Under the pieces are notes generated by a model. That model saw only the letters and a program-made list of their open reading frames with translations, searched no databases and had not been told where the DNA came from. Shown piece after piece: positions 14,062 to 44,783 of a stretch of 50,324 nt of DNA (the stretch's first letter is position 1; each line of letters begins with the position of its first letter). The stretch comes from Flavobacteriaceae bacterium (GTDB taxonomy: Bacteria; Bacteroidota; Bacteroidia; Flavobacteriales; Flavobacteriaceae). The stretch covers positions 1 to 50,324 of the forward strand of contig CANCFZ010000001.1 of NCBI GenBank assembly GCA_947377425.1, given 5' to 3'. The position numbers were made by a program, and so were the translations under genes.

Positions 14062-14084
14062 TTAAACTAATTTATGGTTGTTTA

Positions 14085-15014: not shown

Positions 15015-15015
15015 A

Positions 15016-16191: not shown

Positions 16192-17494
16192 TAATAGCTT
16201 GCTTTTTTGTTTTCATAAATAAAGTACAAATGGCGCTCAAAACTAACAAAACTCCCGCAAAAGTTATTGCCTGTCTGGGATCATTGTTTAAAAAATGTTT
16301 CATAATATATCCAAAAGTGATTGTTTGAATGAACATTGGAATTACGATCATCATGTTAATAATTCCCATATAAACACCATAACGTTCTTTAGGTATGTTA
16401 CTTACTATCATCAGATAAGGAATTCCCATCATGCTTGCCCATCCAATTCCAAAACCTGTAATGGCTGGAAACAATAGATATTTATTTTCTATATGTGGAA
16501 AAATTAAAAATCCAATCGCAGCAAAAGTCAAACAGATAAAATGAACATATTTGGCAGAATATTTTTTAGCAAAACCGACTAAGGCAAAAGCCACTAAAAA
16601 AGTTACAACATTATACCAACCGTTTACTAATCCAGTCCAACTTACAGCTTCACCATATAATTTCATGTTTTTTTCTGGAGTGGTATTCCAAACAGAAAGT
16701 GCAATGCTTTTAGATGAATTTTGCCAATAACAAAACAAGGCATACCATTGAAACAAATATACTAATGCCAATTGCCACATTACTTTGGGCATCTCTTTTA
16801 TTGCATCAAAAATATCAATAAATGGAGTGAAAACATTAATTTTTTCGGACTTCATTTTTTGTATTTCTTCTTCTGTTGGTGGAATCTCCGAAGTTGTTTT
16901 CATACTCCATAAAACGGTTGCTATTGAACAAACGGCCCCAAAAATAAATGACCCAAAAACCCAATTAGGAATTTTTCCGGTAGTTCCAATAATAATCATT
17001 GGAAAAATAAATAATGAAATGTTGGCTAATGTTTGACCCAATCCGGTAAAAAAACTTTGTGCCTGAAAACCAGTCGGCTGTTGATTTTCATCTAGTTTAT
17101 CGGCAATAAAAGCGCGATAAGGTTCCATTGCTGTGTTATTTCCAACGTCTAAAATCCAAAGCAACCCAGCTGCCATCCACAACGAACTACTAAACGGAAA
17201 AGCAAATAATGCCAAACTACACATTATAGCACCTACAAGAAAATAAGGTTTTCTTCTTCCTCCAAGTCGCGGCGACCAAGTTTTATCACTCAAGGCTCCA
17301 ATAATTGGCTGTACTAACAATCCGGTTAATGGACCTGCAAGATTTAAAAAAGGTATTTGATCTGGATGGGCACCAAGAAAGTCGTAAATAGGATTGACGG
17401 CACTTTGTTGCAAACCAAAACTATATTGAATGCCAAAAAAGCCTACATTCATATTGATGATTTGCCAGAAACTTAATTTTATTTTCATGCTCAT
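16184..17494 (-). CDS. MFS sugar transporter, SLC45/sucrose-maltose type
   Basis: NMNVGFFGIQYSFGLQ, AGPLTGLLVQPIIGALSD, GRRKPY, NNTAMEPYRAFIAD, GVYMGIINMMIVIP. Start may be 17488. Confidence 0.88.
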   Translation of the reverse strand: MSMKIKLSFWQIINMNVGFFGIQYSFGLQQSAVNPIYDFLGAHPDQIPFLNLAGPLTGLLVQPIIGALSDKTWSPRLGGRRKPYFLVGAIMCSLALFAFPFSSSLWMAAGLLWILDVGNNTAMEPYRAFIADKLDENQQPTGFQAQSFFTGLGQTLANISLFIFPMIIIGTTGKIPNWVFGSFIFGAVCSIATVLWSMKTTSEIPPTEEEIQKMKSEKINVFTPFIDIFDAIKEMPKVMWQLALVYLFQWYALFCYWQNSSKSIALSVWNTTPEKNMKLYGEAVSWTGLVNGWYNVVTFLVAFALVGFAKKYSAKYVHFICLTFAAIGFLIFPHIENKYLLFPAITGFGIGWASMMGIPYLMIVSNIPKERYGVYMGIINMMIVIPMFIQTITFGYIMKHFLNNDPRQAITFAGVLLVLSAICTLFMKTKKQAISE

Positions 17495-17684: not shown

Positions 17685-17698
17685 CGAAATCGTTTTCG
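17685..17698. promoter_or_regulatory. LacI-family operator (weaker companion site at 17664-17677)
   Basis: CGAAATCGTTTTCG, 13/14 match to the palindrome CGAAAACGTTTTCG seen at 31294 and 33651. Confidence 0.75.
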
Positions 17699-17707: not shown

Positions 17708-18625
17708 TTAGTTTTTTAAATACGGAATAATGATTTGTGTTTCCCACTCAATTTCATTTCCGCCATTGAACGGATTTGCAAAAAAATGTTCTAAAGGCTT
17801 ATAATTAAGTTTGATATTGTGCTCTTTTGCATAATCTAAAAGAGCAAACCAAGCCCTATCTGAAGTTCTCATGTTTCCATAATAGGTTGCTGATAATCCT
17901 TTCATCGCTGGAATTGTTTTGAATTTTACTTTTTCATCTGCAATGTAAATTGTAGATCTATCTATTGGAAAACAGTAATTGAATTCAATTTGTTCTGAAT
18001 CTAAATCCCATTTTACAATTTCAACATAGGGCTTCCCTATAATTTTAATTTTATTATTAGTTAAGTATAATGAAATTGCCGCATCGTTCATAATCATCAT
18101 TTGTGCTTTTTCTTGCAAAACACTTTTCATGTTTATGTAGGCAACAAACTCTTCTTGGGATGAACCTTCTCCATTAATTTTGACTTTAAAATTTTGCAAA
18201 TGTGCCTCAAGTGCTTCTTTAAAATCCTTTATTTTTTTTAGTTGTTCTTCTTTGAATTTTGTTTTAAAAAAAGGTGCTGTTAATCGATTGTAAATACTGT
18301 TTCCTTCTTCTTTTATATCCACTTTTACTTCCGTTATTGAATCGTTATCTGAAGACAAATACCACGAATAATTAAATACTTGATTTCCTTTTATCATTTT
18401 TTGAGCAATGAAATCAAAATTGTTTTTTTCTAAAACAACATAGTTTTCGTTCTTACTTTTAAGTTGTTGATTAGACCAATCTTTTATACCTTGAAAAACA
18501 GTTGCGGTAGCTGTTTTTGCTTTAAATGTAATTGTATAATCACTTTTTTTAACAACTAAATACCAAATCAAAAAAGCAACAAAAACAATCAAAAATCCAA
18601 CAAAATATTTCTTTTTATTTAACAT
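17708..18625 (-). CDS. Membrane-anchored protein with C-terminal GyrI-like small-molecule-binding domain
   Basis: N-terminal TM helix; C-terminal GKPYVEI, FNYCFPI, LSATYYGN, AWFALLDYAKEH, PLEHF, WETQIIIP pattern; start overlaps the upstream gene by 11 bp. Confidence 0.7.
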   Translation of the reverse strand: MLNKKKYFVGFLIVFVAFLIWYLVVKKSDYTITFKAKTATATVFQGIKDWSNQQLKSKNENYVVLEKNNFDFIAQKMIKGNQVFNYSWYLSSDNDSITEVKVDIKEEGNSIYNRLTAPFFKTKFKEEQLKKIKDFKEALEAHLQNFKVKINGEGSSQEEFVAYINMKSVLQEKAQMMIMNDAAISLYLTNNKIKIIGKPYVEIVKWDLDSEQIEFNYCFPIDRSTIYIADEKVKFKTIPAMKGLSATYYGNMRTSDRAWFALLDYAKEHNIKLNYKPLEHFFANPFNGGNEIEWETQIIIPYLKN

Positions 18626-19952
18626 CTTTTTTTAAGAATTTTAATTTTTTAACAATAAATTCACCCACATTTCTACCTTGAATAATTCCGTTTTCTATAG
18701 CAGCTTTGTAATGAATTCCACCGTAAAAACGACTCATAGACGCTTCTTTGGCAGCATCTTTAAACGATTTAAATTTTCTACTTGGTAAATTATATGGCAA
18801 TTCTGTATCATCTAAATAGACAAAGTTTTCTCCAAAAACAGAAGTCAAAACTATAGAAGAACACGTTGAGGCTACCGAATGTCCACTTGTGTATTCTGGA
18901 AATGGTGGTGTTTGCAATAACGGACGCCAGTTTTCATCAATATTTTGATTGATAATTGTTTCCGGACGAACCACATTACTTCTGTATTTTTCATCCCAAC
19001 AACTAATAAACGCATCAAACAATCCGATTGAAGTTGCAGTGTAAGCATAAACAGTTTTATCAAAATCAGCTTTAGAAGAATTACAGGCAATTTTGGTAAT
19101 TCCCATCCAGTGTCCACCTGGTGTAATTTTCTTTTTGGCAAACATCATGTGTCCTTGATTTACGGTTACATACGGATTGCAATCCCAAAATTGTGCAATT
19201 TTCATTTCTTCAGACTTATCACCTTTTTTAATCATCATTTGACTGATATCATAAACTTCTTGTACTTGTTTGAAAAACGGTGAATTTTTATCTGTAGAAT
19301 ACTTTAATGCAGGAGCAGGTTTAAACTGCGATGATGAATCTAAAACCAAGGTTCTTATTTCGCCCCAATGCGGTTCAACGGCATCCATATAAGACGGTGG
19401 CGTAGGTTGCCATCTCGATTTATCATTGGCAAAAACAGAAAATTTTGGATAGGTCCGAGTTTGTTTGTAGTTGTCTTTTCCCATCCATTTTTTGATTCGT
19501 TCGGCAACTTTTAGCCCGTATTCTTTGGAAACTTCAAATTCTTTTGGATTTTCATCCGACCATTTTTTATACAAGCTATCGCGAAATTTTTCAACCAAAT
19601 CTTCTGAAAAAACTAGCGCTTTACTCACTTCCATGTGAGCTACCAAAGCCGCTACATTTTTATTGACACCACTTTTAGCATCCAATCTCGGAATAGAATC
19701 CAAACCTTTCAATTGACCTTGAAGCGAATTGTAAGTAGTGCTATTTTGAGAAATAACCTCATAAGCCGCAATATTGGGATAGGTATAAATCCTACTGGCT
19801 ACAGGCGGCGAAAAAATATCGTGAATCAAGATTTGAGTTACATTATCTATCGATGCTTCATAATCGGATGGTGTTACTACAATCGGCTTTTCTTTTTTGC
19901 AAGAAACAACCAACATACATAGTGCTGCAAGGGTAACTATTTTAAATTTCAT
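18615..19952 (-). CDS. Vanadium-dependent haloperoxidase / PAP2-superfamily lipoprotein
   Basis: Lipobox VVSC; complete vanadate/phosphate-binding motifs KYRSNVVRP, TPPFPEYTSGHS, SRFYGGIHY. Confidence 0.85.
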   Translation of the reverse strand: MKFKIVTLAALCMLVVSCKKEKPIVVTPSDYEASIDNVTQILIHDIFSPPVASRIYTYPNIAAYEVISQNSTTYNSLQGQLKGLDSIPRLDAKSGVNKNVAALVAHMEVSKALVFSEDLVEKFRDSLYKKWSDENPKEFEVSKEYGLKVAERIKKWMGKDNYKQTRTYPKFSVFANDKSRWQPTPPSYMDAVEPHWGEIRTLVLDSSSQFKPAPALKYSTDKNSPFFKQVQEVYDISQMMIKKGDKSEEMKIAQFWDCNPYVTVNQGHMMFAKKKITPGGHWMGITKIACNSSKADFDKTVYAYTATSIGLFDAFISCWDEKYRSNVVRPETIINQNIDENWRPLLQTPPFPEYTSGHSVASTCSSIVLTSVFGENFVYLDDTELPYNLPSRKFKSFKDAAKEASMSRFYGGIHYKAAIENGIIQGRNVGEFIVKKLKFLKKDVK

Positions 19953-19962
19953 TGTGTATTTT

Positions 19963-22900
19963 TTAATTTTTCAAACTTGGTAATTCGTATACTTCTGCGG
20001 GTTTATTATTGATGGTTATTAAAAGGTGTTTTTTACCTTTAACATTCAATATGTCCAAATGTCTAACTGCTTTTTGGGTCAAATCAATTCCAATTTGATT
20101 GCCTAGTAAAATGGTTTTATCGTTTTTGATTAAAGCACCCGAAAACCCATCAAATCTACTATGGTAAGGCGTAACACCAAAATAATTTCCTGCAGCAAAA
20201 ACTTCTTCTTTAGCATCGCCATCAAAATTAGATTTTACAAAACACGTAATTGGTGCCACTTGCAAAACATTTAAAAACGGTACAAAAGTAAATTTGCCAT
20301 TATTATTTTTCAAATAACCCGACTTTAGATTGTGCACTTCATACAATTTTGCTTTGTCCAACAATGCAGGGTCGAAGATTTCTTCTACGGTTTTTCCGGC
20401 AAAATCTTTATAGGCATTGAACTTCTTTTTAACCAATCCGCTAAATTGTTCTGCCAGTTCATCCAAGCCCATTGTGGTGTAATATTTTCCTTCTTTTTCA
20501 ATAGCTACGATGGTTTCAAACGATTCATTTTTGTCAAAATCATCGTAGTACATTTTCATTGGAAATTCTTGACTAGCTTTAAATTTCGAATTCAATCCCC
20601 AGTTTCCAACCAAATAATCTAAATCGCCGTCGCCATCAATATCAAAAGGTTGAATCGACTGCCACAATCCGTTGCATTTTTCAGGAAGAATCGTTTCGGT
20701 TACATTAGAAAATCTTCCGTTAGTATTGGCAAAAAAAGTAGGTTTCATCCATTCGCCAACCACAATCAAATCGGTTTTTCCATCTTTATTAAAATCAGAA
20801 AAAACAGCATCACTCACCATTCCAATTCCAGAAAATGTTTTGGTTTCTACTATAGTAAAATTACCATTATTGTTGTTCAATAAATAACAATCGGAAGTAC
20901 TTCCAAAACGATTATTCTTAGAATTATTCCCAACAAACAAGTCTACATCGCCGTCTTTATCATAATCAAAGGCTTTCACTAATGAAGCATTTTGCATTAA
21001 ACTTGGCAACGTTGTCGCTGTTAAATTTTTACCTAAATACAATCGGTCTTGCAAATCGGAAGCATTTTGACCGCCACCAGAAGCCACATATAAATCGTTA
21101 TTTTTATCATTGTTAAAATCGGCAATTACCGCAGAGGCATCTTCATAAACCGCATCTTTTTCGATACTTGGATATGCTTTTTTAGAAAATCCGTTGCCAT
21201 TTTGAAGAAAAATTTGAGCCGGAATATCTTTCGCACCGCCAAAGAAAATATCGCCTTTTCCATCGCCATTCAAATCGCCAATAGCTGTTGCCGGGCCTCT
21301 ATCAGAACGTTGGTACGGAATTAATTTTTGATAGACAAAATCAACAAAATCATTTTCTTGATGTGTGAAATTGATGCCTAGATTGGAATCCGTTTTTTTG
21401 AAAATTGGTAAAACCGCAGGATGCAATCTACTGTAATCAAAAGGTTTTCTGGTAGTATTCGCTTTAATTGTCAAGGTTTGATTGGTTTTTACACCTTTCA
21501 ATGTTTGATACGTTTTGTCAGGCCAAATAACCACAATCGAATCTACTTTGGCTTCTTTTTTATATCCGAAATGAATCATTGGTTCAGAAGATGATTGAAA
21601 TCCTCTAGTCGTTTGCAGTTCTTTGTATTGTTTTTTCCCTTTAGAATACGAAATCACTTTGGTTCCAATTGCGAAAGTATTTTTACCTTGAAATTGCAAT
21701 TTGATTTTTAGATAATTCGATTGCGAATTCGTTTGATTGATATAAATTGATGCTTCACTGTTCAAGTTATTGGTTACTACATCCAAATCGCCGTCATTAT
21801 CTAAGTCTGCATAACCACTTCCATTGGAAATTATAGAATCGTTTTCAATCCAATCGGCCGATTTATTTTTAAAGTTCAAATCAGCTCCGCCTTGAAAAAT
21901 ATAATTGGTTACTTTGCCGCTTGGCATACGTTTTAAGGCTTCTTTATCTAATAATTTCGTAGAACTGATTTTGGTTTTTACTCTATCATTCGAATAATAT
22001 TTGATGTAATCTAAATCGTTTGGTCGCTTCGGAATTCCGTTGCACACAAAAATATCTTGTTCTCCATCTTGATCGTAATCGGCAAAAAGAGAACTCCAAC
22101 TCCAATCGGAAGCTGCCACACCACTCATCAAAGCCGTTTCGGTAAAATTAGTGCCGCCTTGATTGATTTGCAACATATTGCGCGTGTACTGGCAATGATA
22201 GCCTAACTTTTCGGTGCGCACTTTAAACATTTGAGGATTATCATCTCCGGCCGACGATTTTAGCACTTTTTCATTCTCAGGAAGCATGTCAAGTGTCATG
22301 ATATCTGGGAAAGCGTCGTGGTTGATATCGGCCACATCTATACCCATCGAGAAACGGCTGGTATGCCCAAAGTGCTGTTTCAAACTTTCTGTAAAAGTAC
22401 CGTCGCCGTTGTTTAGATAGTAATAATCGTCTTCGTGAAAATCGTTACAAACGTAAATATCGGGATATCCATCTTGATTAAAATCGGACACTGCCAATCC
22501 TAAACCGTACCCATTAGCACCACCAAAAATTCCGGCTTGTTCGCTGATATCTACAAATTTTCCATTCTCATTTCTGAATAATTTATCGCCACATTCGTAA
22601 CTTCTTTTCTTACGAATGTCGGCATTTCCATACGACAATTCCGAGTGCACAGCATGATTAAGCAAATACATATCCAAATCGCCGTCTAAATCGAAATCGA
22701 AGAAAGCTGCTGAGGAACTGTAATTGTCTAAATCCAATCCATATTCGGCTGCACTTTCAGTAAACGTGTTGTTTTTGTTGTTGATGAACAATTCATTGTG
22801 TCCTTCAAATCCGTTAATCCCCACAACAGCACACACATAAATATCCAAATAACCATCGCCATTTACATCAGCCATAATGGTTCCCGATTCCCAATCGCTA

Positions 22901-23220
22901 GAGCCTTCTACTCCTGCTTTGGCAGAAATATCTTCGTATTTATTGTTGCCTTTGTTTAGGTATAATTTGTTTTTTCCTTGATTGGAACTGAAATAAATAT
23001 CAACCAAACCGTCGTTATTGATATCACCCAAAGCCACACCACCACCATTGTAATAATAGAGGTAATCAAGTATGGAAATATTTTTCTTTGAATCGAGTTC
23101 GTTCACAAAAGTGATATTACTTTCGCTTGAAGGCAATTTCTTAAACAACAAATTTTCTTGTCTTTTTGAACAGCCAACCAGAAGAATAGAAACGAAAAGA
23201 AGTTTATAAAAATTAGTCAT
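19963..23220 (-). CDS. VCBS/FG-GAP repeat lipoprotein with ASPIC/UnbV domain (CRTAC1-like)
   Basis: Start reassigned to ATG 23220 (MTNFYK...LVGC lipobox); many DxDxDGxxD repeats; NGGGVALGDINNDG, WSWS, TRGFQSS. Confidence 0.85.
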   Translation of the reverse strand: MTNFYKLLFVSILLVGCSKRQENLLFKKLPSSESNITFVNELDSKKNISILDYLYYYNGGGVALGDINNDGLVDIYFSSNQGKNKLYLNKGNNKYEDISAKAGVEGSSDWESGTIMADVNGDGYLDIYVCAVVGINGFEGHNELFINNKNNTFTESAAEYGLDLDNYSSSAAFFDFDLDGDLDMYLLNHAVHSELSYGNADIRKKRSYECGDKLFRNENGKFVDISEQAGIFGGANGYGLGLAVSDFNQDGYPDIYVCNDFHEDDYYYLNNGDGTFTESLKQHFGHTSRFSMGIDVADINHDAFPDIMTLDMLPENEKVLKSSAGDDNPQMFKVRTEKLGYHCQYTRNMLQINQGGTNFTETALMSGVAASDWSWSSLFADYDQDGEQDIFVCNGIPKRPNDLDYIKYYSNDRVKTKISSTKLLDKEALKRMPSGKVTNYIFQGGADLNFKNKSADWIENDSIISNGSGYADLDNDGDLDVVTNNLNSEASIYINQTNSQSNYLKIKLQFQGKNTFAIGTKVISYSKGKKQYKELQTTRGFQSSSEPMIHFGYKKEAKVDSIVVIWPDKTYQTLKGVKTNQTLTIKANTTRKPFDYSRLHPAVLPIFKKTDSNLGINFTHQENDFVDFVYQKLIPYQRSDRGPATAIGDLNGDGKGDIFFGGAKDIPAQIFLQNGNGFSKKAYPSIEKDAVYEDASAVIADFNNDKNNDLYVASGGGQNASDLQDRLYLGKNLTATTLPSLMQNASLVKAFDYDKDGDVDLFVGNNSKNNRFGSTSDCYLLNNNNGNFTIVETKTFSGIGMVSDAVFSDFNKDGKTDLIVVGEWMKPTFFANTNGRFSNVTETILPEKCNGLWQSIQPFDIDGDGDLDYLVGNWGLNSKFKASQEFPMKMYYDDFDKNESFETIVAIEKEGKYYTTMGLDELAEQFSGLVKKKFNAYKDFAGKTVEEIFDPALLDKAKLYEVHNLKSGYLKNNNGKFTFVPFLNVLQVAPITCFVKSNFDGDAKEEVFAAGNYFGVTPYHSRFDGFSGALIKNDKTILLGNQIGIDLTQKAVRHLDILNVKGKKHLLITINNKPAEVYELPSLKN

Positions 23221-26200
23221 TACGCTTGAATATTTTCGGCTTGTTATCATTTACTACTGCAATTATCGTTGCCGAATTGTTTTTTGTTTTAATTATTTTA
23301 ATGTTTTTAACTTCGCCTTTAATGAAAATACCCGATTTTTCATTCGGAACCCAAGTAAACGTTCCGTTTTTAGTTCCTAACAATACACTGCTGTAATTGG
23401 CATCCAATCGAGCATATTGTGGTTTGAATTCGTATTGATTTCCACCCAGAATTAAATCTAAAATTCCATCTTTATTGACGTCCATAGTGCAAATGGCATT
23501 CACACTAGAAAACTGTACTTCTTTAGGCAATGCTTTCATTTCAAACTGTCCGTTACCTTTGTTAATGGCAACAGAACTTTGTTGAACATAAGCTGTTTTT
23601 ATTATCGAATTGGAAACTACTTCGGGTGTAAAGATTTCTTGAACTGATTTTTTAGCGTATTCTTCATAGCTCAAATTCTTCTTTTTGATGGATGGAATTT
23701 GTTTGGCTAATTCGCCTTTCATGTGAATAGGCATATCTTTTCCGTCGATGGTTCGTGATGAAATTTGTTCGATAGTTCCGTTGTTATCAAAATCGTTGAC
23801 AAACATTTTCATCGGACTTTCCTTAGTACATTTATAGGAAGTATTGGTTCCTTTATTACCAAAAATTAAATCTTTTTTGCCGTCGTTATTCAAATCGACA
23901 CAAGAAACGGTGTTCCAAAATCCTTTTTCGTTGGTCAAATTATTTTTAAATTCTGCCAAACGTCTACCCGTATTTTTGAAAATAACTGGCGCCATCCAAT
24001 CGCCCACAATAATCAAATCTTTTTTATTGTCGTTGTCAATATCTTCCCAAATTGCATCGGTAATCATTCCAACTTCATTCATTTTGAAGGCTTTTTTATC
24101 GGTGACATTAGTGAAATTTCCTTTGCCGTCATTTTCCAATAATAAGTGTTTTGGGTCAATTCCGTATACGCCTGGTACACTTCTGCTTCCTATAAAAACA
24201 TCGGTATCACCATCATTATCAAAATCATACGGCGCAATAACAGCTACATTGGCATTTGTAGTTGGCAATGCCGAAGTGCTTTTTGTAAACAGCCCTTTTC
24301 CATTATTTAGATACAAACGGTTTTTGTAATTGGCTTGATCGGCTTTTTCATTTCCTCCGGAACCCACAAGTAAATCAATATCTCCGTCATTATCAGCATC
24401 AAAGAAACTTGCAGCCGTATATTCAAACATGGCGTCGCTATTTAATGCTGGTTGGTTAGTTGGTGTGAAATTAGAATTGCCATTATTGAGGTAAATTTTG
24501 CCAGGAGTTCCTTTAGCACCGCCAATAAACAAATCGTCATTTCCGTCATTATTGATATCTGCAACAGCTAATGATGGTCCTTCCTGCGATAACATTTTAG
24601 AAATTAATCCTTCATAATCAAAGTCGATGTAATCGTTTTCTTTGTGAGGAATTAAAGTATTCGCTTGTTCCTTAAATAACGGTTTAAACATTTCTTTTTT
24701 AGGAACAAAAGTATTTTTAGCATCGGCAATATTCAAGGTAATAGTTGAATTAGCGGCTACTTTTTTTATTGTTTGAAATTTATCATTTGGCCAAATAACT
24801 TTTAAAGAATCTATTTTTTTGGTTCCAATTCCGAAGGTCATCACATAATCAATAGACGATTGGAATCCGCGAGACGGAATCAATTCTTGACGAATAATTT
24901 CTTTTTTAGAATACAATTCGACTACGCTTCCGATGGCAAATTTGTTTTGTTTATCGCCTTTAAGCTTGACTTTTATGAAGTGATTGTCTTTGTTTTTTTG
25001 CGAATTATTTTGATAGACAAAAGCAGGCATGTTTACATTATTAACAATCAAATCTAAATCGCCGTCATTATCTAAATCACCATAAGCCGCTCCATTAGAG
25101 AAACTTGGCGTTCCCAATCCCCAATTTTGAGCTTCGTTGGTGAACGTTAAATTTTTATTATTTCTGTAAGCATAATTTGGAATTGGCGTGCTTGGCATTT
25201 TATTAATGATGTTTTCCATATCATCTTTTTTACCTGTAATCGCCATTTTTTGCATCACATCATTGGCGAAAAAGTCCACAAAATCTTGATTGGTTAAGTC
25301 GTGGTAAATTCCGTTACAAACATAAATATCTTTGTAACCATCGTTGTCCATATCGAAAAGTAAAGCTCCCCAACTCCAATCTGTTTTGGCTACTCCAGCA
25401 AAACTCGCTATTTCATTAAATTGCCCATTTTTGGAATTTAATTGCAAGGTGTTTTGCATGTATTGATTAAAGAAATCGAGGTTTAACTTTCTTGTAAATA
25501 AGTCGTAATTATCAAAAGTTGTAGTAGTTTTAGTTCTTTGATCGCCTTCGGGCAACATATCAGTAGTGAAAATATCGGCTAAACCGTCGTTGTTGATATC
25601 AGCCATATCGGCACCCATAGAAGATTGACTAATGTGTGTTGCCCAATTCTGAATTTGCTCCGAAAAAGTGCCATTTTTGTTATTAATATAAAGGTAATCT
25701 CTTTCGTAAAAATCGTTAGAAATATAAATATCCGGATACAAATCACCGTTTACATCACCAACAGTGACTCCTAATCCGAACCCAATAAGACTTCCATAAA
25801 TTCCGGCTTCTTCACTTACATCTTTAAATTTTCCGTCGTCATTTCGCAACAATCGGTCGCCACCACCTTTAAGAATTGGATTAACATCCCAATCTTTATC
25901 GCGAAGTTCACGCTTGTTGGAATAATTCAAACTACTCACTGGTATAAAACTGTTGTTCAGTATATAGCAATCTAAATCGCCATCTTTGTCATAGTCAAAA
26001 AAGGCAGCATGAGTTGTAATTCCAGTATCGGCAAGATTGTATTCTTTGGCTTTTTCGGTAAAGGTTAAATTTCCATTATTGATGAAAAGTTCGTTATCTT
26101 GTTGTGCTCCTTTGTTGCTTCCGGCATTGCAAACATAAATATCTAATAAACCATCTCCATTAATATCAACCATAACAACTCCTGTTGACCACGATTTGGT

Positions 26201-26518
26201 TCCTTGAATTCCGGCTTTTTTGGAAATGTCTTCAAATTTAAAATTTCCTTTATTGAGATATAAGGTATTGGTTCCTTGATTGGAAGTGAAATATATATCT
26301 GACAGTCCATCGTTATTTATATCCCCAATAGCGACGCCGCCACCATTATAGAAATTACGGTATTTAAAAATATTCATTTCTTCTCCGTTTTTAACTTCAT
26401 TTACAAAGTTAATGCCTGTTTGAGACGGAGTTAATTCGGTAAACAATGTGTCTTCATTTTTGGAACATCCAATAAAAACAAAGGTTAGAAGCGAAACTAA
26501 TGCTAATTTTTTGTGCAT
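23213..26518 (-). CDS. VCBS/FG-GAP repeat lipoprotein with ASPIC/UnbV domain (paralog)
   Basis: Start reassigned to ATG 26518 (MHKKLAL...FIGC lipobox); NGGGVAIGDINNDG, DWSWG, SNGAAYGDLDNDGDLDL, SRGFQSS; stop overlaps the next gene start by 8 bp. Confidence 0.85.
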   Translation of the reverse strand: MHKKLALVSLLTFVFIGCSKNEDTLFTELTPSQTGINFVNEVKNGEEMNIFKYRNFYNGGGVAIGDINNDGLSDIYFTSNQGTNTLYLNKGNFKFEDISKKAGIQGTKSWSTGVVMVDINGDGLLDIYVCNAGSNKGAQQDNELFINNGNLTFTEKAKEYNLADTGITTHAAFFDYDKDGDLDCYILNNSFIPVSSLNYSNKRELRDKDWDVNPILKGGGDRLLRNDDGKFKDVSEEAGIYGSLIGFGLGVTVGDVNGDLYPDIYISNDFYERDYLYINNKNGTFSEQIQNWATHISQSSMGADMADINNDGLADIFTTDMLPEGDQRTKTTTTFDNYDLFTRKLNLDFFNQYMQNTLQLNSKNGQFNEIASFAGVAKTDWSWGALLFDMDNDGYKDIYVCNGIYHDLTNQDFVDFFANDVMQKMAITGKKDDMENIINKMPSTPIPNYAYRNNKNLTFTNEAQNWGLGTPSFSNGAAYGDLDNDGDLDLIVNNVNMPAFVYQNNSQKNKDNHFIKVKLKGDKQNKFAIGSVVELYSKKEIIRQELIPSRGFQSSIDYVMTFGIGTKKIDSLKVIWPNDKFQTIKKVAANSTITLNIADAKNTFVPKKEMFKPLFKEQANTLIPHKENDYIDFDYEGLISKMLSQEGPSLAVADINNDGNDDLFIGGAKGTPGKIYLNNGNSNFTPTNQPALNSDAMFEYTAASFFDADNDGDIDLLVGSGGNEKADQANYKNRLYLNNGKGLFTKSTSALPTTNANVAVIAPYDFDNDGDTDVFIGSRSVPGVYGIDPKHLLLENDGKGNFTNVTDKKAFKMNEVGMITDAIWEDIDNDNKKDLIIVGDWMAPVIFKNTGRRLAEFKNNLTNEKGFWNTVSCVDLNNDGKKDLIFGNKGTNTSYKCTKESPMKMFVNDFDNNGTIEQISSRTIDGKDMPIHMKGELAKQIPSIKKKNLSYEEYAKKSVQEIFTPEVVSNSIIKTAYVQQSSVAINKGNGQFEMKALPKEVQFSSVNAICTMDVNKDGILDLILGGNQYEFKPQYARLDANYSSVLLGTKNGTFTWVPNEKSGIFIKGEVKNIKIIKTKNNSATIIAVVNDNKPKIFKRND

Positions 26519-26605
26519 TTTAATAGTAAAATATTTAATTTTTGTGAAGTTGAAATTCAAGCACAATTTATGCTTTTTTTTTGGAAATTACAGCAAATAA
26601 ACAAT

Positions 26606-26633
26606 AAAAAAGAGGGCAATAAATGCCCTCTTT
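26606..26633 (-). terminator. Intrinsic terminator-like hairpin after susD
   Basis: Perfect 10-bp stem AAAGAGGGCA / TGCCCTCTTT with 5-nt loop; T-run on the minus strand. Confidence 0.75.
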
Positions 26634-26669
26634 AGAAATATAACTCAAACAAAACTAACAAACATTTTA

Positions 26670-28172
26670 TTAGTATCCAGCATTTTGTTTCAAATTAGCA
26701 TTGAACAAAGCGTCTGCTGGAATTGGGAATAAAAGATATTTCGGATCTGAGTTGTAAGGCTTTAATTCTCTAGCATCTAGGAATTTACCAAAACGAATCA
26801 TGTCATTTCTTCTCCATCCTTCCCACCATAATTCTCTACCTCTTTCAGCATATACTCCGTCAAGAGTATTTGCAGCAGCAGCAACACCAGCTCTTGTAGC
26901 AATATCAGACAATATTGAACCAGCACTACCTGTTCCTCCTCTTAAGATAGCTTCAACTTTCATTAATAATGCATCTGAATAACGCATTAAAACTAAGTCA
27001 TTATCTGGCGATCCTAAATTAGAGTTATCCGGAATATATTTCATACCACGAATACCCGCAGTTTCTAATGTTGCACCACTTGTAATTAAAGTAATAGCTG
27101 ATGTAAACACTAAAGGATGACTATTTCTATCTTGCAAAGCTACTACTCCACCTGGAGCATATTGTTGCCCAATATTAAATCCAACAGGATTTCCTAAATC
27201 AGCAATAATAGTTGGTGTTGAATATTTAGCTCTTGCGTCAGTTGACCCAAAACGGTTGTAATACTCTGACAATGTTGCGAAACCATTCCATCCAGAAGGA
27301 GTTTGGTTGTAGTGTGTACACATTCTCCATTTAGATTGCATATTTCCACCTGCTCCACCTTGAATATTTTTAGATGAAAAAATAACCTCATCAGAATTAT
27401 TATTGTTTGGAGCAAAGTTATCCCAATAATTAGGTGCTAATGTACTTGTAATTGCATCAACATGTTGCACCACTTTAGTCATATCAGCAGCAGCGAAAGA
27501 ACCAGAACCATCAAAAACTGATTTGTTAAGGTATAATTTAGCCAATAAAAAATGAGCTGCATCTTTGTTAACGATACTTGCATCACCAGAAACTCTTGCT
27601 GGTAAACTTCCAACAATAGCTTCCAATTCTGAAATCACAAAAGCAGTAGCTTCAGAACGAGACCATACTTTTGGGTCGTCTAATAAACTTGAACCAACTG
27701 GTCTGTATGGCGCTTGTCCGAATAAATCTACTACATTATAGTAATAAAACGCACGCAAGAAACGGGCTTGTAAAACTTCCGAAGCAGTTCCTCCATTTTC
27801 AATAACTAAATTACAATTGTAAACATTTGATAATAATGAATTCCATGCACCTTTAACTTCACCATGATCTGGTGCCCAAGTTTGCGTATGAATTTGTCTC
27901 CAAACTCCATTATCATCCCAGTCACCACCACGAGTTGGCCCAACCATTGCATCGGTTGACATTTCATCAAGCGCATACATCATACCTTGACCATTAAAAT
28001 CTCTTAATCCATTGTATGCAGCAACTAATGTTGCAGATGTATTTATTGAACCTCCAGCAGATGAATTATTAGGAACTCCATCCAAAATCTCTTCATCTAA
28101 ATTAGTACAACTTACAGTTAAAGCAAGTGCACTTAGGCATAAAAATCCTTTTATTAAATTATTTTTTTTCAT
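26670..28172 (-). CDS. SusD/RagB family lipoprotein
   Basis: Lipobox TVSC; ARFLRAFYY, AHFLLAKLYLN, RYSDALLMKVEA, ERGRELWWEGWRRNDMIRFG, C-terminal QNAGY. Confidence 0.93.
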   Translation of the reverse strand: MKKNNLIKGFLCLSALALTVSCTNLDEEILDGVPNNSSAGGSINTSATLVAAYNGLRDFNGQGMMYALDEMSTDAMVGPTRGGDWDDNGVWRQIHTQTWAPDHGEVKGAWNSLLSNVYNCNLVIENGGTASEVLQARFLRAFYYYNVVDLFGQAPYRPVGSSLLDDPKVWSRSEATAFVISELEAIVGSLPARVSGDASIVNKDAAHFLLAKLYLNKSVFDGSGSFAAADMTKVVQHVDAITSTLAPNYWDNFAPNNNNSDEVIFSSKNIQGGAGGNMQSKWRMCTHYNQTPSGWNGFATLSEYYNRFGSTDARAKYSTPTIIADLGNPVGFNIGQQYAPGGVVALQDRNSHPLVFTSAITLITSGATLETAGIRGMKYIPDNSNLGSPDNDLVLMRYSDALLMKVEAILRGGTGSAGSILSDIATRAGVAAAANTLDGVYAERGRELWWEGWRRNDMIRFGKFLDARELKPYNSDPKYLLFPIPADALFNANLKQNAGY

Positions 28173-28182
28173 AGTTTTTTAA

Positions 28183-31100
28183 TTAAAATGTTACATTAAG
28201 TCCTACAGCAAATGCTTTTGAACGCGGATATGACAAGTAATCAATTCCAGCAGATGGAACTCCGTTTAATGATTTATCAGTATTTACCTCTGGGTCGAAT
28301 CCAGAATATTTAGTGAATAATAATAAATTTTGACCATTTACATAAAAACGAGCTGATTTGATTTTTAATTTATCTAAAGTCGCTCCACTAAAAGTATAAC
28401 CAAATGTTAAGTTACCCATTCTTAAGAAATCTCCTTTTTCTAAATATTTAGTAGATGGAGAGTTTGGATCTCCTTGAGCTTGTGCAGATGTTGCAACTTC
28501 TTCAGGAACGTTTCTTCCTCCTTGGAAAGCACCTTTAAAGAAATAAGCATTAGCTGTATTATTATATAAATAATGACCAAATGCACCGTAGAAAGAAGCA
28601 GACATATCAAAGTTTTTGTATGCCATATTTGTTGTAAAACCTATATTCATTTTTGGCAAACCTTGTTTTCCAACTAATTTTTTAGCTGCCAAACCTAATC
28701 CTGCATTGTTTCCAGCAGCATCAGCATAGATAGAAGTACCATCAGCAGCATAACCTCTCCACTCATACATGTAGTAGCTATATATCGGTTCGTTGTTAGT
28801 AACAACTTGAGCATAAGCATTTGATAATCCTTGACCATTTAAGGCTCCTGCTTGAATAAATCCAGCAAAGTTTTTCATAGTGTTTTTGATGAACGATGCG
28901 TTTGCAGAAACATCCCAAGTAAAATCACCTTTATTGATAACTTTATAGTTTAATCCAATTTCATAACCTTTATTGATAAGGTTACCGTCAAGATTCACAT
29001 ATCTTGGTGATGGTGGACCTGGTTGAGTTGAAGCAGCAGGAACTGGGAAAATCAAATTTTTAGTATCTCTGTTGAAATAATCAACATTACCTGACAATCT
29101 GTTTTTTATTAATGTAAAGTCAGCACCAAAACCATACGATTTAGTAGTTTCCCATTTCAAAATTGTATTCGCGTTTGAATCAACATTCAATGATCCATTT
29201 AAACCATAAGATGAACGTGCTATAGCTGAATTTGGCGCAAATTCCTGATTACCAGTAGTACCAAAGTTAGCTCTTAATTTCAAAGAATTTGCTAAACCTT
29301 CTTTACCTTCAAAAACTTTATAACCTAATCCTACAGACGGAAATGAACCATATTTATTGTTAACACCTAATTTGGTAGAACCATCTTCACGAATAGTAGC
29401 CGTTACTAAGAATTTTTTGTATAAAGTAGCATTAAGTCTTGTATAATAAGATTGCAATTGAACTCTACTTCTGTATGAAGAAACTCTAAATTCATTTTGT
29501 AACCCTCCTTCGATATTATCAATAAGATTAACTTGAGCATCATCATATCCTTTACCAGAAGAAAAACTTCCATCAGCATTATAATCGTAGTAAGAATACC
29601 CAACTAAAGCATCAAAAATAAAGTTATCATTAAATGTTTTATTATAATTTAATGTATGCTCAAATGTTTTATTAAACTTATTGTTGTTCATTAATGCAGC
29701 TTGACCATATTTAACTGTAGTACTTCCAGGAGCGGTTGCTTGAGCTACGTTTTGAATATGTATAGATGGCAATAATTGTGATTTTCTAACTGAGTTTGAA
29801 CCTTCAACACCAAATAAGAATTGGTAGTTTAAGTTTTTAGATAATTTTAAAGTAGATTTAATACTAGCTAAAATTTTATTAGTGTTAGTATAATCTTTAT
29901 ACGAATCTAATAACTGAACTGGATTCAAATAAGTATCACTTCCGTAAGAAGTACTTGAATAACCAGGATTATAATAACCATCAGGTGAATTATCATAAAT
30001 TGGGTTAGTTGGATTCCAGTATAAAGCAGACCCAATTAAGTTACCTATAAAACCAGCATTATTAGAAATTAACGTAGCTTTATCTTTAATTCCAGCATAG
30101 TTAATTTTTGATTCAATTTTTAAATTTCCACCAAAATAATCATTTGAATTATTTAATGAGAATGTATATTTATCAATACCTGTGTTTTTAACAATTCCTT
30201 CTGTGTTAGAAGCACCAAAAGACAAACGAGTACTTGAGTTATCAGTAGATTTTGAAAATGATACATCATTGTTAACTGTTAATCCTCCACGTAATACAGC
30301 GTCTTTCCAATTGTAGACTCTTGAACCTGTATCTGCACCACCATTTCTTACAAATGTGTTGCTATCCATAACATTCAATTTACTTGAAAATTTACTGAAA
30401 GTAACGTTTGTACTAAAATTTAATTGTGGTTCTTTTGATTTTGATTTTTTAGTTGTAATAACAATAACACCATTAGCTCCACGAGAACCATAAATAGCAG
30501 TTGAAGACGCATCTTTTAAGATAGTCATGCTTTCAATATCATTTTGATTCACGAAGTTCAATGGGTTTCTTGCTGATGAAGTTCCTAATAAGTCATCTCC
30601 ACCTGCTGAAATATCACCACCATCTAATGGCACACCATCAATAACGATAAGTGGACCATTTCCTGAACGGATTGAAGAGTTACCACGAATTCTGATTGAA
30701 GACGCAGCTCCTGGCTCACCACTTGAAGAAGTAACTTGTACACCTGATACTTTACCTCTTAATAAATCTGCTGGTGATGTTGCAGATATGTTGTCAAAAT
30801 TTTTAGAGTTTAATTGATCTACAGCTCCTGTTGCATCTTTCTTTTTAACAGAACCGTAACCAATAACTACTACTTCTTTTAACTCTTGTAGATCGTCAGC
30901 CATCGTAACGTTAAGTGAAGTTTTACCTGCCACTTTAACTTCTTGTGTCTTAAGACCTATGTAACTGAATACAAGAACTGCATCTGAAGCTACATTTTTA
31001 ATTGTAAAATTTCCATCTAAATCTGTTTGTTGGCTGTTAGAGGTTCCTTTTACTGTGACAGAAACACCGGGTAATGACCCTCCTTTACTGTCGGATACTT

Positions 31101-31185
31101 TTCCTGTTACATTTTGCGCAAATGCAAAACCCGAAAAAAACATCGTTAGAAATACTAAAAAGCCCTTGAGTAGACTATTTTTCAT
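28183..31185 (-). CDS. SusC/RagA family TonB-dependent transporter
   Basis: Signal peptide, N-terminal carboxypeptidase-regulatory-like domain, EVVVIGYG, LKDASSTAIYGSRGANGVIVITTK, LKWETT, YSGFDPE, terminal F. Confidence 0.96.
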   Translation of the reverse strand: MKNSLLKGFLVFLTMFFSGFAFAQNVTGKVSDSKGGSLPGVSVTVKGTSNSQQTDLDGNFTIKNVASDAVLVFSYIGLKTQEVKVAGKTSLNVTMADDLQELKEVVVIGYGSVKKKDATGAVDQLNSKNFDNISATSPADLLRGKVSGVQVTSSSGEPGAASSIRIRGNSSIRSGNGPLIVIDGVPLDGGDISAGGDDLLGTSSARNPLNFVNQNDIESMTILKDASSTAIYGSRGANGVIVITTKKSKSKEPQLNFSTNVTFSKFSSKLNVMDSNTFVRNGGADTGSRVYNWKDAVLRGGLTVNNDVSFSKSTDNSSTRLSFGASNTEGIVKNTGIDKYTFSLNNSNDYFGGNLKIESKINYAGIKDKATLISNNAGFIGNLIGSALYWNPTNPIYDNSPDGYYNPGYSSTSYGSDTYLNPVQLLDSYKDYTNTNKILASIKSTLKLSKNLNYQFLFGVEGSNSVRKSQLLPSIHIQNVAQATAPGSTTVKYGQAALMNNNKFNKTFEHTLNYNKTFNDNFIFDALVGYSYYDYNADGSFSSGKGYDDAQVNLIDNIEGGLQNEFRVSSYRSRVQLQSYYTRLNATLYKKFLVTATIREDGSTKLGVNNKYGSFPSVGLGYKVFEGKEGLANSLKLRANFGTTGNQEFAPNSAIARSSYGLNGSLNVDSNANTILKWETTKSYGFGADFTLIKNRLSGNVDYFNRDTKNLIFPVPAASTQPGPPSPRYVNLDGNLINKGYEIGLNYKVINKGDFTWDVSANASFIKNTMKNFAGFIQAGALNGQGLSNAYAQVVTNNEPIYSYYMYEWRGYAADGTSIYADAAGNNAGLGLAAKKLVGKQGLPKMNIGFTTNMAYKNFDMSASFYGAFGHYLYNNTANAYFFKGAFQGGRNVPEEVATSAQAQGDPNSPSTKYLEKGDFLRMGNLTFGYTFSGATLDKLKIKSARFYVNGQNLLLFTKYSGFDPEVNTDKSLNGVPSAGIDYLSYPRSKAFAVGLNVTF

Positions 31186-31273: not shown

Positions 31274-31307
31274 CGAAAACGTTATAGTAATAACGAAAAC
31301 GTTTTCG
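31274..31307. promoter_or_regulatory. Tandem LacI-family operators upstream of susC
   Basis: CGAAAACGTTATAG (31274-31287) and perfect palindrome CGAAAACGTTTTCG (31294-31307), 20 bp apart. Confidence 0.85.
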
Positions 31308-33650: not shown

Positions 33651-33664
33651 CGAAAACGTTTTCG
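33651..33664. promoter_or_regulatory. LacI-family operator between divergent GH65 and GH13 genes
   Basis: Perfect palindrome CGAAAACGTTTTCG. Confidence 0.85.
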
Positions 33665-36675: not shown

Positions 36676-36687
36676 TCAAAACAAACA

Positions 36688-38442: not shown

Positions 38443-39015
38443 ATGAAAAAAACTGCAACAGTACTATTAATCCTAATACTAACCTCAACGTTTTTATATA
38501 ATGTTGTTGGGTATTATTTGCTAGTTTCTCTTAAAAAAGAGCAAGCTTGGGTTAGTGCTGTTCAAAAAGATTCTAACTGCAATTTTAAAGTTATAAAACT
38601 GAATGCATCGGTATATTCGTTTATGGAAGACACCGATTTTGAATATGTAAACGAGAATGTTATCATCAACAAAAATGTATACCATGTATTCAAAAAAAGA
38701 ATAAAAGACAACATCATCAGTTTGTATTATTTACCTAACAAACAACAATCTACAACCGAAATCAATCTTAAAAAATTGGTCGACAACGATCTTTTTGAAA
38801 ATGCACCTTTGTCAAAAAAACCACTCGAAAAACTATTTAAGTCACTTATAAAAGATTATTTCCCAAGTAATTACTACAGTGAAGAATACAATGCACAATC
38901 TTATGTTGCACTTTTATGTGACGATTCACATCCAAATGGCAGACTTCATGCCGGATTTAAAACACTCGCCTACTCTCCTCCCAAAACAAGTCAATCACTT
39001 CTATTACTATCTTAA
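38443..39015 (+). CDS. Hypothetical protein with N-terminal hydrophobic segment and C-terminal SPP motif
   Basis: 190-aa ORF 6 bp after GH13; hydrophobic residues about 5-30; ends LAYSPPKTSQSLLLLS. Confidence 0.7.
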   Translation: MKKTATVLLILILTSTFLYNVVGYYLLVSLKKEQAWVSAVQKDSNCNFKVIKLNASVYSFMEDTDFEYVNENVIINKNVYHVFKKRIKDNIISLYYLPNKQQSTTEINLKKLVDNDLFENAPLSKKPLEKLFKSLIKDYFPSNYYSEEYNAQSYVALLCDDSHPNGRLHAGFKTLAYSPPKTSQSLLLLS

Positions 39016-41846: not shown

Positions 41847-41854
41847 AAAATAGT

Positions 41855-44714: not shown

Positions 44715-44730
44715 TAATTTAAACTTTATT

Positions 44731-44769: not shown

Positions 44770-44783
44770 AATATAATTTTATT

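What the first reader, a model, noticed from the sequence alone, without database searches (positions are those of the whole stretch)
17708..31185. Glycosidase-free SusC/D operon coupled to two giant VCBS-ASPIC/UnbV lipoproteins, a vanadium-haloperoxidase/PAP2 lipoprotein and a GyrI-like protein
Seen: six co-oriented genes, the last four with overlaps or a 10-bp gap; four carry lipoboxes; none has a recognisable glycosidase motif; the operon shares the operator found at the disaccharide genes. Established: surface lipoproteins following susD usually bind or process the substrate; ASPIC/UnbV proteins have no well-defined biochemical role; K-x6-RP/SGH/R-x5-H motifs are common to vanadium haloperoxidases and acid phosphatases. 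Inference: a sugar-induced envelope module in which beta-propeller proteins act as lectins, scaffolds or unrecognised hydrolases, and the enzyme either makes hypohalous acid for oxidative attack or dephosphorylates sugar phosphates. This gene combination probably recurs in other Bacteroidota, but I know of no functional description. Best candidate for an undescribed system here.
Basis: partly seen in the sequence, partly recalled or inferred. Interest (0 to 1): 0.85.

Follow-up and report, generated by a model that had tools for sequence, protein, structure and literature searches.

The report
Sugar importer with propeller–iodoperoxidase module
A lake Flavobacterium carries a small-sugar import locus that ends in a widely conserved four-gene module: giant propeller lipoproteins that likely capture sugar travel with a close relative of a known iodide-oxidising enzyme, and although this gene set is already catalogued, its job is untested.

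Summary
The six genes, four lipoboxes, tight junctions and shared operator are real. "Glycosidase-free" holds only for the six genes. Kojibiose hydrolase, two GH13s, an invertase-like enzyme, a PfkB sugar kinase and trehalase flank them behind the same operator, and the genome's only other exact copy of that operator precedes its starch Sus locus.

The enzyme is a close homologue of Zobellia vanadium iodoperoxidase Zg-VIPO1, whose gene also follows ASPIC/UnbV genes. The conserved unit is propeller plus peroxidase:
- 67 of 67 sampled genomes with a close peroxidase have the giant propeller (background 106 of 400).
- The pairs are co-inherited.
- They are fused in 23 of 36 long homologues.

The gene set is catalogued in North Sea PUL tables, and all six matching proteins are abundant but not glycogen-induced in a published Muricauda proteome. 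I found no functional description. This scan has already reported the cassette in at least nine other findings on other genomes.

Best reading (0.35): propeller-localised iodide/H2O2 chemistry at the sugar-capture site. Main rival: sugar-phosphate phosphatase (0.25), favoured by the freshwater habitat.

Verdict: real, widespread and unexplained; a variant of a known PUL type.

The parts
33651..33664 (.). LacI-type operator CGAAAACGTTTTCG between divergent GH65 and GH13 genes
   Evidence: exact palindrome
33752..38436 (+). Two secreted GH13 oligo-1,6-glucosidase/TreC-like enzymes with a DUF418 gene between them; same regulon
31563..33566 (-). GH65 kojibiose hydrolase
   Evidence: NF053734 899.6 bits, over the 800 cut-off
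31294..31307 (.). Operator upstream of susC; a partial second copy lies 20 bp downstream (about 31274-31287)
28183..31185 (-). SusC TonB-dependent transporter
   Evidence: TIGR04056 662 bits, cut-off 368
26670..28172 (-). SusD lipoprotein
   Evidence: PF07980 and PF14322 over cut-off; lipobox
26609..26633 (-). Terminator-like hairpin after susD (possible attenuator)
   Evidence: 10-bp stem plus T run; function inferred
23213..26518 (-). Propeller lipoprotein A (SusD-proximal type): CRTAC1/UnbV-like propeller plus ASPIC (mature residues 5-582) and a second propeller (595-1084); 12 DxDxDG-type loops
   Evidence: tree
19963..23220 (-). Propeller lipoprotein B (peroxidase-adjacent type), about 39-42% identical to A; 10 DxDxDG-type loops
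18615..19952 (-). Vanadium haloperoxidase-type lipoprotein, close homologue of Zg-VIPO1
   Evidence: 4CIT E 8.8e-192; cofactor-motif residues K, R, P, H, R, H invariant in 126 of 126 aligned homologues
17708..18625 (-). [quoted passage not shown]
   Evidence: PF06445 E 4.3e-5 (below cut-off); profile hits 7zhd and 6wl5 at E 2.6e-6
17685..17698 (.). Operator upstream of the sucrose/trehalose operon
   Evidence: kept in 74 of 75 testable related loci
10977..17494 (-). Sucrose-type MFS, GH100-like invertase, PfkB kinase, second MFS, GH37 trehalase
   Evidence: the invertase slot holds GH100-like (31) or sucrose-phosphorylase-like (34) genes, never both, in 80 related loci

Best explanation
This locus is a small alpha-glucoside uptake regulon that ends in a conserved four-gene module, in which propeller lipoproteins likely capture sugar at the cell surface and likely hold a vanadium iodoperoxidase whose iodide/peroxide oxidant would act on what they bind. 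Shown here: the genes, lipoboxes and shared operator; the flanking sucrose, trehalose and kojibiose enzymes; the CRTAC1-like fold; the intact peroxidase motifs; and co-occurrence, co-inheritance and fusion of propeller and peroxidase. Inferred: (1) SusC/D import sucrose, trehalose, kojibiose and short alpha-glucans under the LacI repressor of the starch locus. (2) Propeller A acts as the surface sugar-binding partner in a PUL type that has no SusE gene. (3) Propeller B and the peroxidase work as a pair, with ambient H2O2 turned into a localised iodine oxidant rather than a released one. (4) The GyrI-like protein binds a small product. Steps 1 and the genetic partnership are well supported (about 0.85-0.9); the confidence figure is for the chemistry.
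For: The enzyme matches 4CIT at E 8.8e-192, and Zg-VIPO1 (ZGAL_1262) itself follows three ASPIC/FG-GAP genes. 67 of 67 genomes with a close peroxidase have the giant propeller, against 106 of 400 overall. The genes are adjacent in 55 of 91 close loci but 3 of 27 distant ones. Paired distances mirror each other (rho 0.66, permutation maximum 0.24; 41 of 50 nearest neighbours agree, 3.1 expected), including among paralogous pairs within one genome. 23 of 36 longer homologues are FG-GAP+ASPIC+peroxidase fusions (three checked). A-type paralogues form a 32-row clade never adjacent to the peroxidase. In peroxidase-free genomes the propellers still sit within 20 kb of SusC in 19 of 20 loci, and two in a Muricauda xylose PUL rise 14- and 39-fold on xylan. 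A passage of PMC11871015 groups ZgVHPO with selective enzymes that have a shielded active site. The C-21 genome note reports glucose-, O2- and Ca2+-dependent iodide uptake and at least five Zg-VIPO homologues.
Against: Nothing shows sugar binding or a physical complex. The organism is a lake/freshwater one, where iodide and vanadate are scarce (recalled), and the recalled in-vitro iodide constants of Zg-VIPO1 (sub-millimolar Km, slow turnover) would make the reaction slow; I could not read that paper. The motifs are shared with acid phosphatases. No H2O2-producing oxidase lies in the locus, and no GMC oxidoreductase was found in this 76%-complete genome. The Muricauda module is not glycogen-induced. 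Only 24 of 93 close-peroxidase loci carry an alpha-glucoside gene within the 20 kb fetched, so the pair is not tied to this sugar class. Kin are not independent in any of these counts.
Confidence: 0.35

Rival explanations
1. The enzyme works in vivo as a vanadate-free surface phosphatase. It would strip phosphate from trehalose-6-P, sucrose-6-P or glucose phosphates released by lysing cells, which the propeller captures, so the free sugar can pass SusC/D. Iodide oxidation would be a test-tube side activity.
For: The K-x6-RP / SGH / R-x5-H motifs are the PAP2 phosphatase motifs (established knowledge). The habitat is freshwater, yet the gene is as conserved as the sugar enzymes (median 72.5% identity across Flavobacterium loci; PfkB 73.9, MFS 73.2). 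It sits in a sugar regulon. Vanadate-loaded acid phosphatases can oxidise halides and apo-haloperoxidases hydrolyse phosphate esters (both recalled).
Against: The only PDB relative found is the deposited vanadium haloperoxidase. The PAP2 Pfam score is below cut-off (24.4 < 27.2) and no NCBIfam phosphatase model hits. It does not explain why the propeller is always present.
Confidence: 0.25
2. The ASPIC/UnbV propeller is itself an unrecognised calcium-dependent sugar oxidase or dehydrogenase. It makes the H2O2 that the iodoperoxidase consumes; where the peroxidase is missing, other redox partners take the electrons.
For: It explains the one-way dependence (67 of 67 versus 37 of 106 propeller genomes without peroxidase). 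[quoted passage not shown] Related loci hold an RnfD/UnbU-like gene (1 tested, E 2e-5, below cut-off), 3-keto-disaccharide hydrolases, a cupredoxin, a redoxin and a Cu-monooxygenase-like gene. Gramella PUL 156 starts with glucoside 3-dehydrogenase. Propeller 1 has conserved non-loop residues, including D252, M284, M304, N339, W364 and W366. Enediyne E4/UnbV takes part in iodide-dependent oxidative chemistry (recalled; only the title of PMC11658463 was seen).
Against: Propeller 1 has no invariant His or Cys (H278 is kept in 60-69%) and no flavin, PQQ or heme family hit. The best fold match is CRTAC1, for which I recall no enzyme activity. The Met motifs are present in only 7 of 16 fusion proteins.
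Confidence: 0.15
3. The module is a general surface peroxide sink, made constitutively, that protects cells foraging near photosynthetic organisms. The propeller is only a scaffold or sacrificial iodine acceptor.
For: Constitutive high abundance of three haloperoxidases in Muricauda (0.05-0.18% riBAQ). Neither KatE nor KatG was found in this 76%-complete genome.
Against: 13 of 16 peroxidase-positive Flavobacterium genomes have KatG. Lack of both catalases is 3 of 16 versus 9 of 104 (Fisher p 0.20). Several paralogous pairs per genome, each in a different PUL, are hard to explain by a generic sink.
Confidence: 0.15
4. The propellers are new glycoside hydrolases or plain lectins of the PUL, and the peroxidase is a co-transcribed passenger with no functional link.
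For: Propellers occur without the peroxidase in 37 of 106 genomes. The two propellers are predicted to pack rigidly (pTM 0.94), and an ancestral GH74 double-propeller enzyme appears among the weak fold hits.
Against: 67 of 67 co-occurrence, mirror inheritance, and repeated fusions in proteins labelled Puia and Caldilineaceae.
Confidence: 0.1

Closest known systems
'Open-SusD' alpha-glucan PUL of Muricauda sp. MAR_2010_75 (Beidler et al. 2024, PMC11093988; one section, passages and rows of supplementary file 9 seen)
   Same: FG28_RS04375-04400 read SusC, SusD, VCBS, VCBS, vanadium haloperoxidase and a 299-aa regulator-like protein, next to GH65, GH13 and LacI; all six proteins are detected. The match is by order, annotation and size; sequences were not compared.
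   Different: The paper ends the PUL at SusD; its main text has no hit for VCBS, peroxidase or propeller. That host is marine. Here the regulon adds sucrose and trehalose operons, and the LacI is inferred to act in trans.
North Sea Flavobacteriia PULs 122, 156, 103/116 (Kappelmann et al. 2019, PMC6298971; supplement rows and figure text seen, some cells cut)
   Same: PUL 122 lists LacI, GH37, MFS, kinase, GH100, GyrI-like, PAP2, three repeat proteins and GH13. PUL 156 lists SusC, SusD, two FG-GAP proteins, haloperoxidase and an effector-domain protein. PULs 103/116 are drawn as a 'trehalose' PUL with ASPIC and PAP2 genes.
   Different: Catalogue only: substrate 'unknown' or predicted trehalose, and no role for the ASPIC or PAP2 genes in what I saw.
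Zg-VIPO1, vanadium iodoperoxidase of Zobellia galactanivorans (PDB 4CIT/4USZ; Fournier 2014, paper not held)
   Same: Full-length match at E 8.8e-192 with the same motif residues; lipoprotein; its gene follows three ASPIC/FG-GAP genes.
   Different: Activity and halide range of the window protein are untested. Freshwater host. The physiological role of Zg-VIPO1 was not established in anything I could read.
CRTAC1 / ASPIC-UnbV (enediyne E4) family (PDB 9ETN)
   Same: The first 582 mature residues superpose on murine CRTAC1 (Z 39.7, rmsd 2.5, 460 aligned); PF07593 is over cut-off.
   Different: An extra second propeller, a lipid anchor and a PUL context. No enediyne PKS genes lie in the window.
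Classical Sus/PUL systems (B. thetaiotaomicron starch Sus)
   Same: SusC/SusD pair, downstream surface lipoproteins, co-regulated glycosidases.
   Different: No SusE/F or surface amylase here. The downstream lipoproteins are ASPIC propellers and a haloperoxidase homologue. PF07593 was not found in the B. thetaiotaomicron control genome.

Membership tests
Polysaccharide utilisation locus | Tandem susC/susD | tested here: met
   TIGR04056 over cut-off; PF07980 and PF14322 over cut-off; 10-bp gap
Polysaccharide utilisation locus | Co-located glycan-cleaving enzymes | tested here: met
   GH65, two GH13, GH100-like and GH37 within about 16 kb on either side
Polysaccharide utilisation locus | Shared regulation (operator/regulator) | tested here: met
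   three exact operators here, a fourth beside LacI and the starch Sus locus on contig C56; repressor binding is inferred
Polysaccharide utilisation locus | Induction by and uptake of the substrate | not testable with these tools
   The published proteome of a like-ordered locus shows no glycogen induction
Open-SusD alpha-glucan PUL (Beidler 2024) | SusD lacks the ~17-residue loop and two ligand residues of B. thetaiotaomicron SusD; few enzymes, no SusE | tested here: inconclusive
   No SusE in the locus and the same gene order; the alignment to 3CK7 is two partial stretches and does not cover the loop question
Vanadium haloperoxidase, Zg-VIPO1 group | Cofactor motifs K-x6-RP, SGH, R-x5-H | tested here: met
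Vanadium haloperoxidase, Zg-VIPO1 group | Full-length similarity to 4CIT | tested here: met
   E 8.8e-192, residues 8-441
Vanadium haloperoxidase, Zg-VIPO1 group | Vanadate- and H2O2-dependent iodide oxidation | not testable with these tools
   needs assay
PAP2 / class A acid phosphatase | Family profile score | tested here: inconclusive
   PF01569 24.4 bits, below 27.2; a homologue passes with 38.7; no NCBIfam hit
PAP2 / class A acid phosphatase | Phosphomonoesterase activity | not testable with these tools
   needs assay
CRTAC1/ASPIC-UnbV | FG-GAP propeller followed by ASPIC/UnbV domain, CRTAC1 fold | tested here: met
   (fold modelled for protein A only)
Enediyne PKS cassette (PKSE, E3, E4, E5, TE; composition recalled) | Co-located PKSE and partner genes | tested here: not met
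   No PKS among the 27 window proteins scanned; the rest of the genome was not searched for them
Known glycoside hydrolase families (for the propellers) | GH profile or fold match with catalytic residues | tested here: inconclusive
   No GH Pfam hit; GH74 only as a weak generic double-propeller hit, 9% identity, TM 0.23; the model is longer than the fold search advises
[quoted passage not shown] | PF06445 domain / similarity to solved GyrI-like domains | tested here: inconclusive
   24.3 bits, below 26; profile hits 7zhd and 6wl5 at E 2.6e-6 over the C-terminal third

The most novel reading that the evidence does not exclude
Bacterial ASPIC/UnbV propellers are an unrecognised family of calcium-dependent surface sugar oxidases that feed H2O2 to a partner vanadium iodoperoxidase. 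This pair is the machinery behind glucose-, oxygen- and calcium-dependent iodide oxidation and accumulation in flavobacteria, an oxidative arm of PULs reaching into fresh water, and the first biochemical handle on the family that includes CRTAC1 and enediyne E4.
Probability: 0.15. Interest if true: 0.88.

Novelty: new variant of a known kind. Interest (0 to 1): 0.52.

Why it matters
About a quarter of the sampled Bacteroidota genomes (106 of 400) carry these 120-kDa propeller lipoproteins, mostly beside SusC/D, and I found no function for them in print. About one in six (67 of 400) also carry a close relative of the characterised bacterial vanadium iodoperoxidase, and every one of those also has the propeller.

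If the pair does halide/peroxide chemistry at a sugar importer, PULs have an oxidative arm that has been overlooked. It would also give candidate genes for flavobacterial iodide accumulation and a first activity for the CRTAC1/UnbV fold. If the enzyme is a phosphatase instead, it changes how Zg-VIPO1 should be read.

Cultured Flavobacterium, Zobellia, Gramella and Muricauda strains carry the module, so the question can be tested directly. This particular copy adds a freshwater host but is not unique.

Tried and rejected
Structure and complex jobs:
- Complex prediction of propeller B (residues 5-575) with the peroxidase, own paired alignments: no answer (score 0.01, mark 0.32). The second propeller was not tested.
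- AlphaFold model of a natural fusion (P0031, 16 sequences): pLDDT 77.5, pTM 0.62. Both parts fold, but their packing is undetermined.
- Fold searches gave only CRTAC1 and generic propellers. Aldos-2-ulose dehydratase (Z 29.2, 9% identity) sits among many non-enzymes of similar Z and was not used.
- The ESM Atlas did not answer.

Genome-distribution tests:
- Aerobe association was uninformative: COX1 is in 289 of 301 genomes; the 11 relatives listed without it also lack the propeller, but the base rate is about 19%.
- Catalase replacement: not supported.
- No GMC oxidoreductase or DUF1080 was found in the 76%-complete own genome; this is not proof of absence.

Expression and promoter data:
- RNA contigs from four studies cover susC/D and parts of the propellers and peroxidase but cannot rank genes or prove transcription.
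- Zobellia co-expression of VIPO1 with ZGAL_1261 (r 0.81) and ZGAL_1263 (0.80) is weak support, because ZGAL_1268 reaches 0.77 among only 17 comparison genes.
- The sigma-70 promoter scan is at chance level.

Literature:
- Ten searches found no functional study of the module in the held library, which lacks most subscription papers.
- Fournier 2014, Amachi 2007 and Gui 2024 were not held. They and their supplements may discuss gene context or phosphatase tests.

Readings rejected: 'glycosidase-free locus'; 'six-gene unit as the conserved core'; 'frameshift or assembly artefact'.
Full report
1. What is there. The window is contig C1 of a 2.3-Mb, 76%-complete genome. Its close relatives are labelled Flavobacterium. 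The DNA occurs in lake and freshwater runs: of 9 runs holding at least half its words, 5 are lake water, 2 freshwater and 2 soil, from 5 studies, one of which may be the source. The six genes are present as described, with four lipoboxes and junctions of an 8-bp overlap, a 10-bp gap and an 11-bp overlap among the last four. A 151-bp gap with a terminator-like hairpin separates susD from propeller A.

2. The locus has glycosidases. GH65 kojibiose hydrolase (over its NCBIfam cut-off), two GH13 enzymes, a GH100-like enzyme, a PfkB kinase, two MFS transporters and GH37 trehalase flank the six genes. The palindrome CGAAAACGWTTTCG matches exactly at four places in the genome: before the sucrose/trehalose operon, before susC, between GH65 and GH13, and on contig C56 between a LacI gene and a SusC-SusD-SusE-amylase locus. 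The operator after the GyrI-like gene is kept in 74 of 80 related loci. Five of the six without it end before that point, so it is 74 of 75 testable. In those 80 loci the invertase slot holds a GH100-like gene (31) or a sucrose-phosphorylase-like gene (34), never both, and 67 reach a trehalase. I infer an alpha-glucoside regulon run by the starch-locus LacI.

3. The enzyme. It matches Zobellia Zg-VIPO1 (4CIT) at E 8.8e-192. K, R, P, H, R and H of the three motifs are invariant in 126 of 126 aligned homologues. In Zobellia the gene follows three ASPIC/FG-GAP genes (rows of a supplement of PMC5613140). Passages of PMC13198595 and PMC11871015 class the Zobellia enzyme as an iodoperoxidase, say that halide determinants are largely unknown, and note its shielded active site. 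The primary paper was not held.

4. The propellers. Each has FG-GAP repeats, an ASPIC/UnbV domain and 10-12 DxDxDG-type loops; calcium binding is inferred from the motif. The model of A is confident (pLDDT 93.7, pTM 0.94). Residues 5-582 superpose on CRTAC1 (Z 39.7, rmsd 2.5, 460 aligned), and 595-1084 form a second propeller that matches only generic propellers. In 109 aligned sequences propeller 1 has 91 of 490 columns conserved at 90% or more, against 41 of 485 in propeller 2. These include non-loop D252, M284, M304, N339, W364 and W366, but no invariant His or Cys. Across Flavobacterium loci the propellers (median 78.6% identity) are better conserved than SusD (65.8%, range 46-83).

5. Conservation. 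I examined the best 80 of 140 relatives found by pattern, all close. Propeller B is directly upstream of the peroxidase in 77 of 78 testable loci, the GyrI-like gene directly downstream in 77 of 77, and the five-gene order holds in 67 of 69 that reach susC. In 400 phylum-wide genomes the peroxidase is in 80 and the giant propeller in 106. All 67 genomes with a close peroxidase have the propeller (E below 1e-85; I chose this cut at a gap in the list after seeing it). So do 69 of all 80, while 37 propeller genomes have no peroxidase. I fetched 120 of the 127 listed peroxidase matches. Two were dropped because my ORF caller missed the gene, and one of these (L108) shows adjacency on re-reading. 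Adjacency is 55 of 91 for close and 3 of 27 for distant homologues, and 49 of 91 have a SusC-like gene within the 20 kb fetched. Only 24 of 93 show an alpha-glucoside gene and 10 the GyrI-like gene. Other neighbours include fucosidase, GH3, ROK, redoxin, a Cu-monooxygenase-like gene and capsule/LPS genes. In 20 hand-picked loci from the 37 peroxidase-free genomes, 19 have SusC within 20 kb, some with 3-keto-glycoside genes or an RnfD-like gene. A quick tree puts A in a 32-row clade never adjacent to the peroxidase and B among adjacent ones (9 label changes, 36.7 in shuffles). Paired propeller and peroxidase distances mirror each other (rho 0.66; 41 of 50 nearest neighbours agree), also across paralogous pairs in one genome. 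Of 36 longer homologues, 23 are propeller-ASPIC-peroxidase fusions, some labelled Puia or Caldilineaceae. P0007 looks frameshifted; P0009, P0019 and P0031 have all three domains. Kin are not independent, so these counts show a pattern, not a p-value.

6. Prior description. Kappelmann 2019 lists this gene set as PULs 122 and 156 (substrate unknown) and 103/116 (trehalose) (supplement rows, some cut). Beidler 2024 studied a Muricauda alpha-glucan PUL whose SusC/D are followed by two VCBS proteins, a haloperoxidase and a 299-aa protein. Mean riBAQ on extract/glycogen/xylan was: SusC 0.98/0.49/0.51, SusD 0.38/0.50/0.36, VCBS 0.156/0.098/0.124 and 0.060/0.042/0.043, peroxidase 0.160/0.179/0.168, last gene 0.062/0.044/0.048, GH13 about 0.001. 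The module is therefore made, abundant and not glycogen-induced, while two VCBS proteins of a xylose PUL rise 14- and 39-fold on xylan. The main text does not mention the four genes. Orthology to the window is by order and size only. The C-21 genome note (whole text read) reports glucose-, O2- and Ca2+-dependent iodide uptake, a proposed oxidase-haloperoxidase mechanism and at least five Zg-VIPO homologues. Ten searches found no functional account (listed under Tried and rejected). This scan reported the cassette before on other DNA.

7. Mechanism. Well supported: a sugar regulon, and a genetic partnership of propeller and peroxidase. Inferred and preferred (0.35): the propellers capture sugar at the importer and keep the peroxidase's iodine oxidant local. 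This fits the one-way dependence, the PUL-specific paralogues and the shielded active site. Against it: freshwater scarcity of iodide and vanadate (recalled), no H2O2 source found, and no induction. Rivals are a sugar-phosphate phosphatase (0.25), the propeller as an oxidase feeding the peroxidase (0.15), a general peroxide sink (0.15; 13 of 16 carriers have KatG) and a passenger gene (0.10).

8. Verdict. The feature is real and conserved. It is a PUL variant that is catalogued but uncharacterised, with a propeller-peroxidase partnership I could not find described. Interest 0.52; the boldest reading has probability 0.15 and interest 0.88 if true.

Noticed in passing
window 38443-42322 (+): A second haloperoxidase/PAP2-type gene (40191-41846, motifs K-x6-RP, SGH, R-x5-H; lipobox-like ISISC) with a 310-aa secreted protein of no Pfam family, a 190-aa protein and a DoxX gene with a weak hit to the reactive-chlorine resistance protein RclC (E 1.1e-6, far below cut-off). 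The PAP2 gene sits beside the VIPO1-type gene in 6 of 93 other loci, the 310-aa gene in 5.
   Followed up: partly
G000:C56:2038-11830 (L221): Starch Sus locus (SusC, SusD, SusE, T9SS amylase) with divergent LacI and the fourth exact operator at 10690; likely the regulator of the window locus.
   Followed up: yes
window 42450-47457: GH3, GH30 (endo-1,6-beta-glucanase-like) and a LacI with a different palindrome near 46404; probably a separate beta-glucan unit.
   Followed up: no
L211:2-3468, and similar sizes in L212, L216, L217, L218, L220: A ~600-aa single ASPIC/UnbV propeller followed by a ~290-aa gene (RnfD/NQR2-like in the one tested, E 2e-5), reminiscent of enediyne E4/E5 (recalled). It lies inside SusC/D loci, some with 3-keto-disaccharide hydrolase and Gfo/Idh/MocA genes.
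   Followed up: partly
L112, L113, L116, L117: PULs with SusC-SusD-(redoxin)-Cu-monooxygenase-like gene-propeller-peroxidase: redox genes clustered inside a PUL.
   Followed up: no
L088, L090, L091, L095, L099, L105, L106 (~194 aa); L119-L149 (~188 aa, ~362 aa, ~313 aa): Small proteins with no Pfam hit that recur between propellers or beside the peroxidase.
   Followed up: no
P0001, P0014, P0018, P0002: Database proteins fusing the peroxidase to trehalase, GH20 or GH97, and tandem double peroxidases; the single-member ones may be read-through artefacts.
   Followed up: no
G000:C109:2107-4143: A third ASPIC/UnbV protein (678 aa, T9SS-like tail) outside any PUL.
   Followed up: no
G000 whole genome: No KatE or KatG catalase found (76% complete); 12 of 120 near-complete genus genomes also lack both.
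   Followed up: yes
window 47460-48415: Intergenic stretch holding two near-identical copies of GTAATGTTTCAAAGTTAGTGATGAACT and a looser third copy.
   Followed up: no
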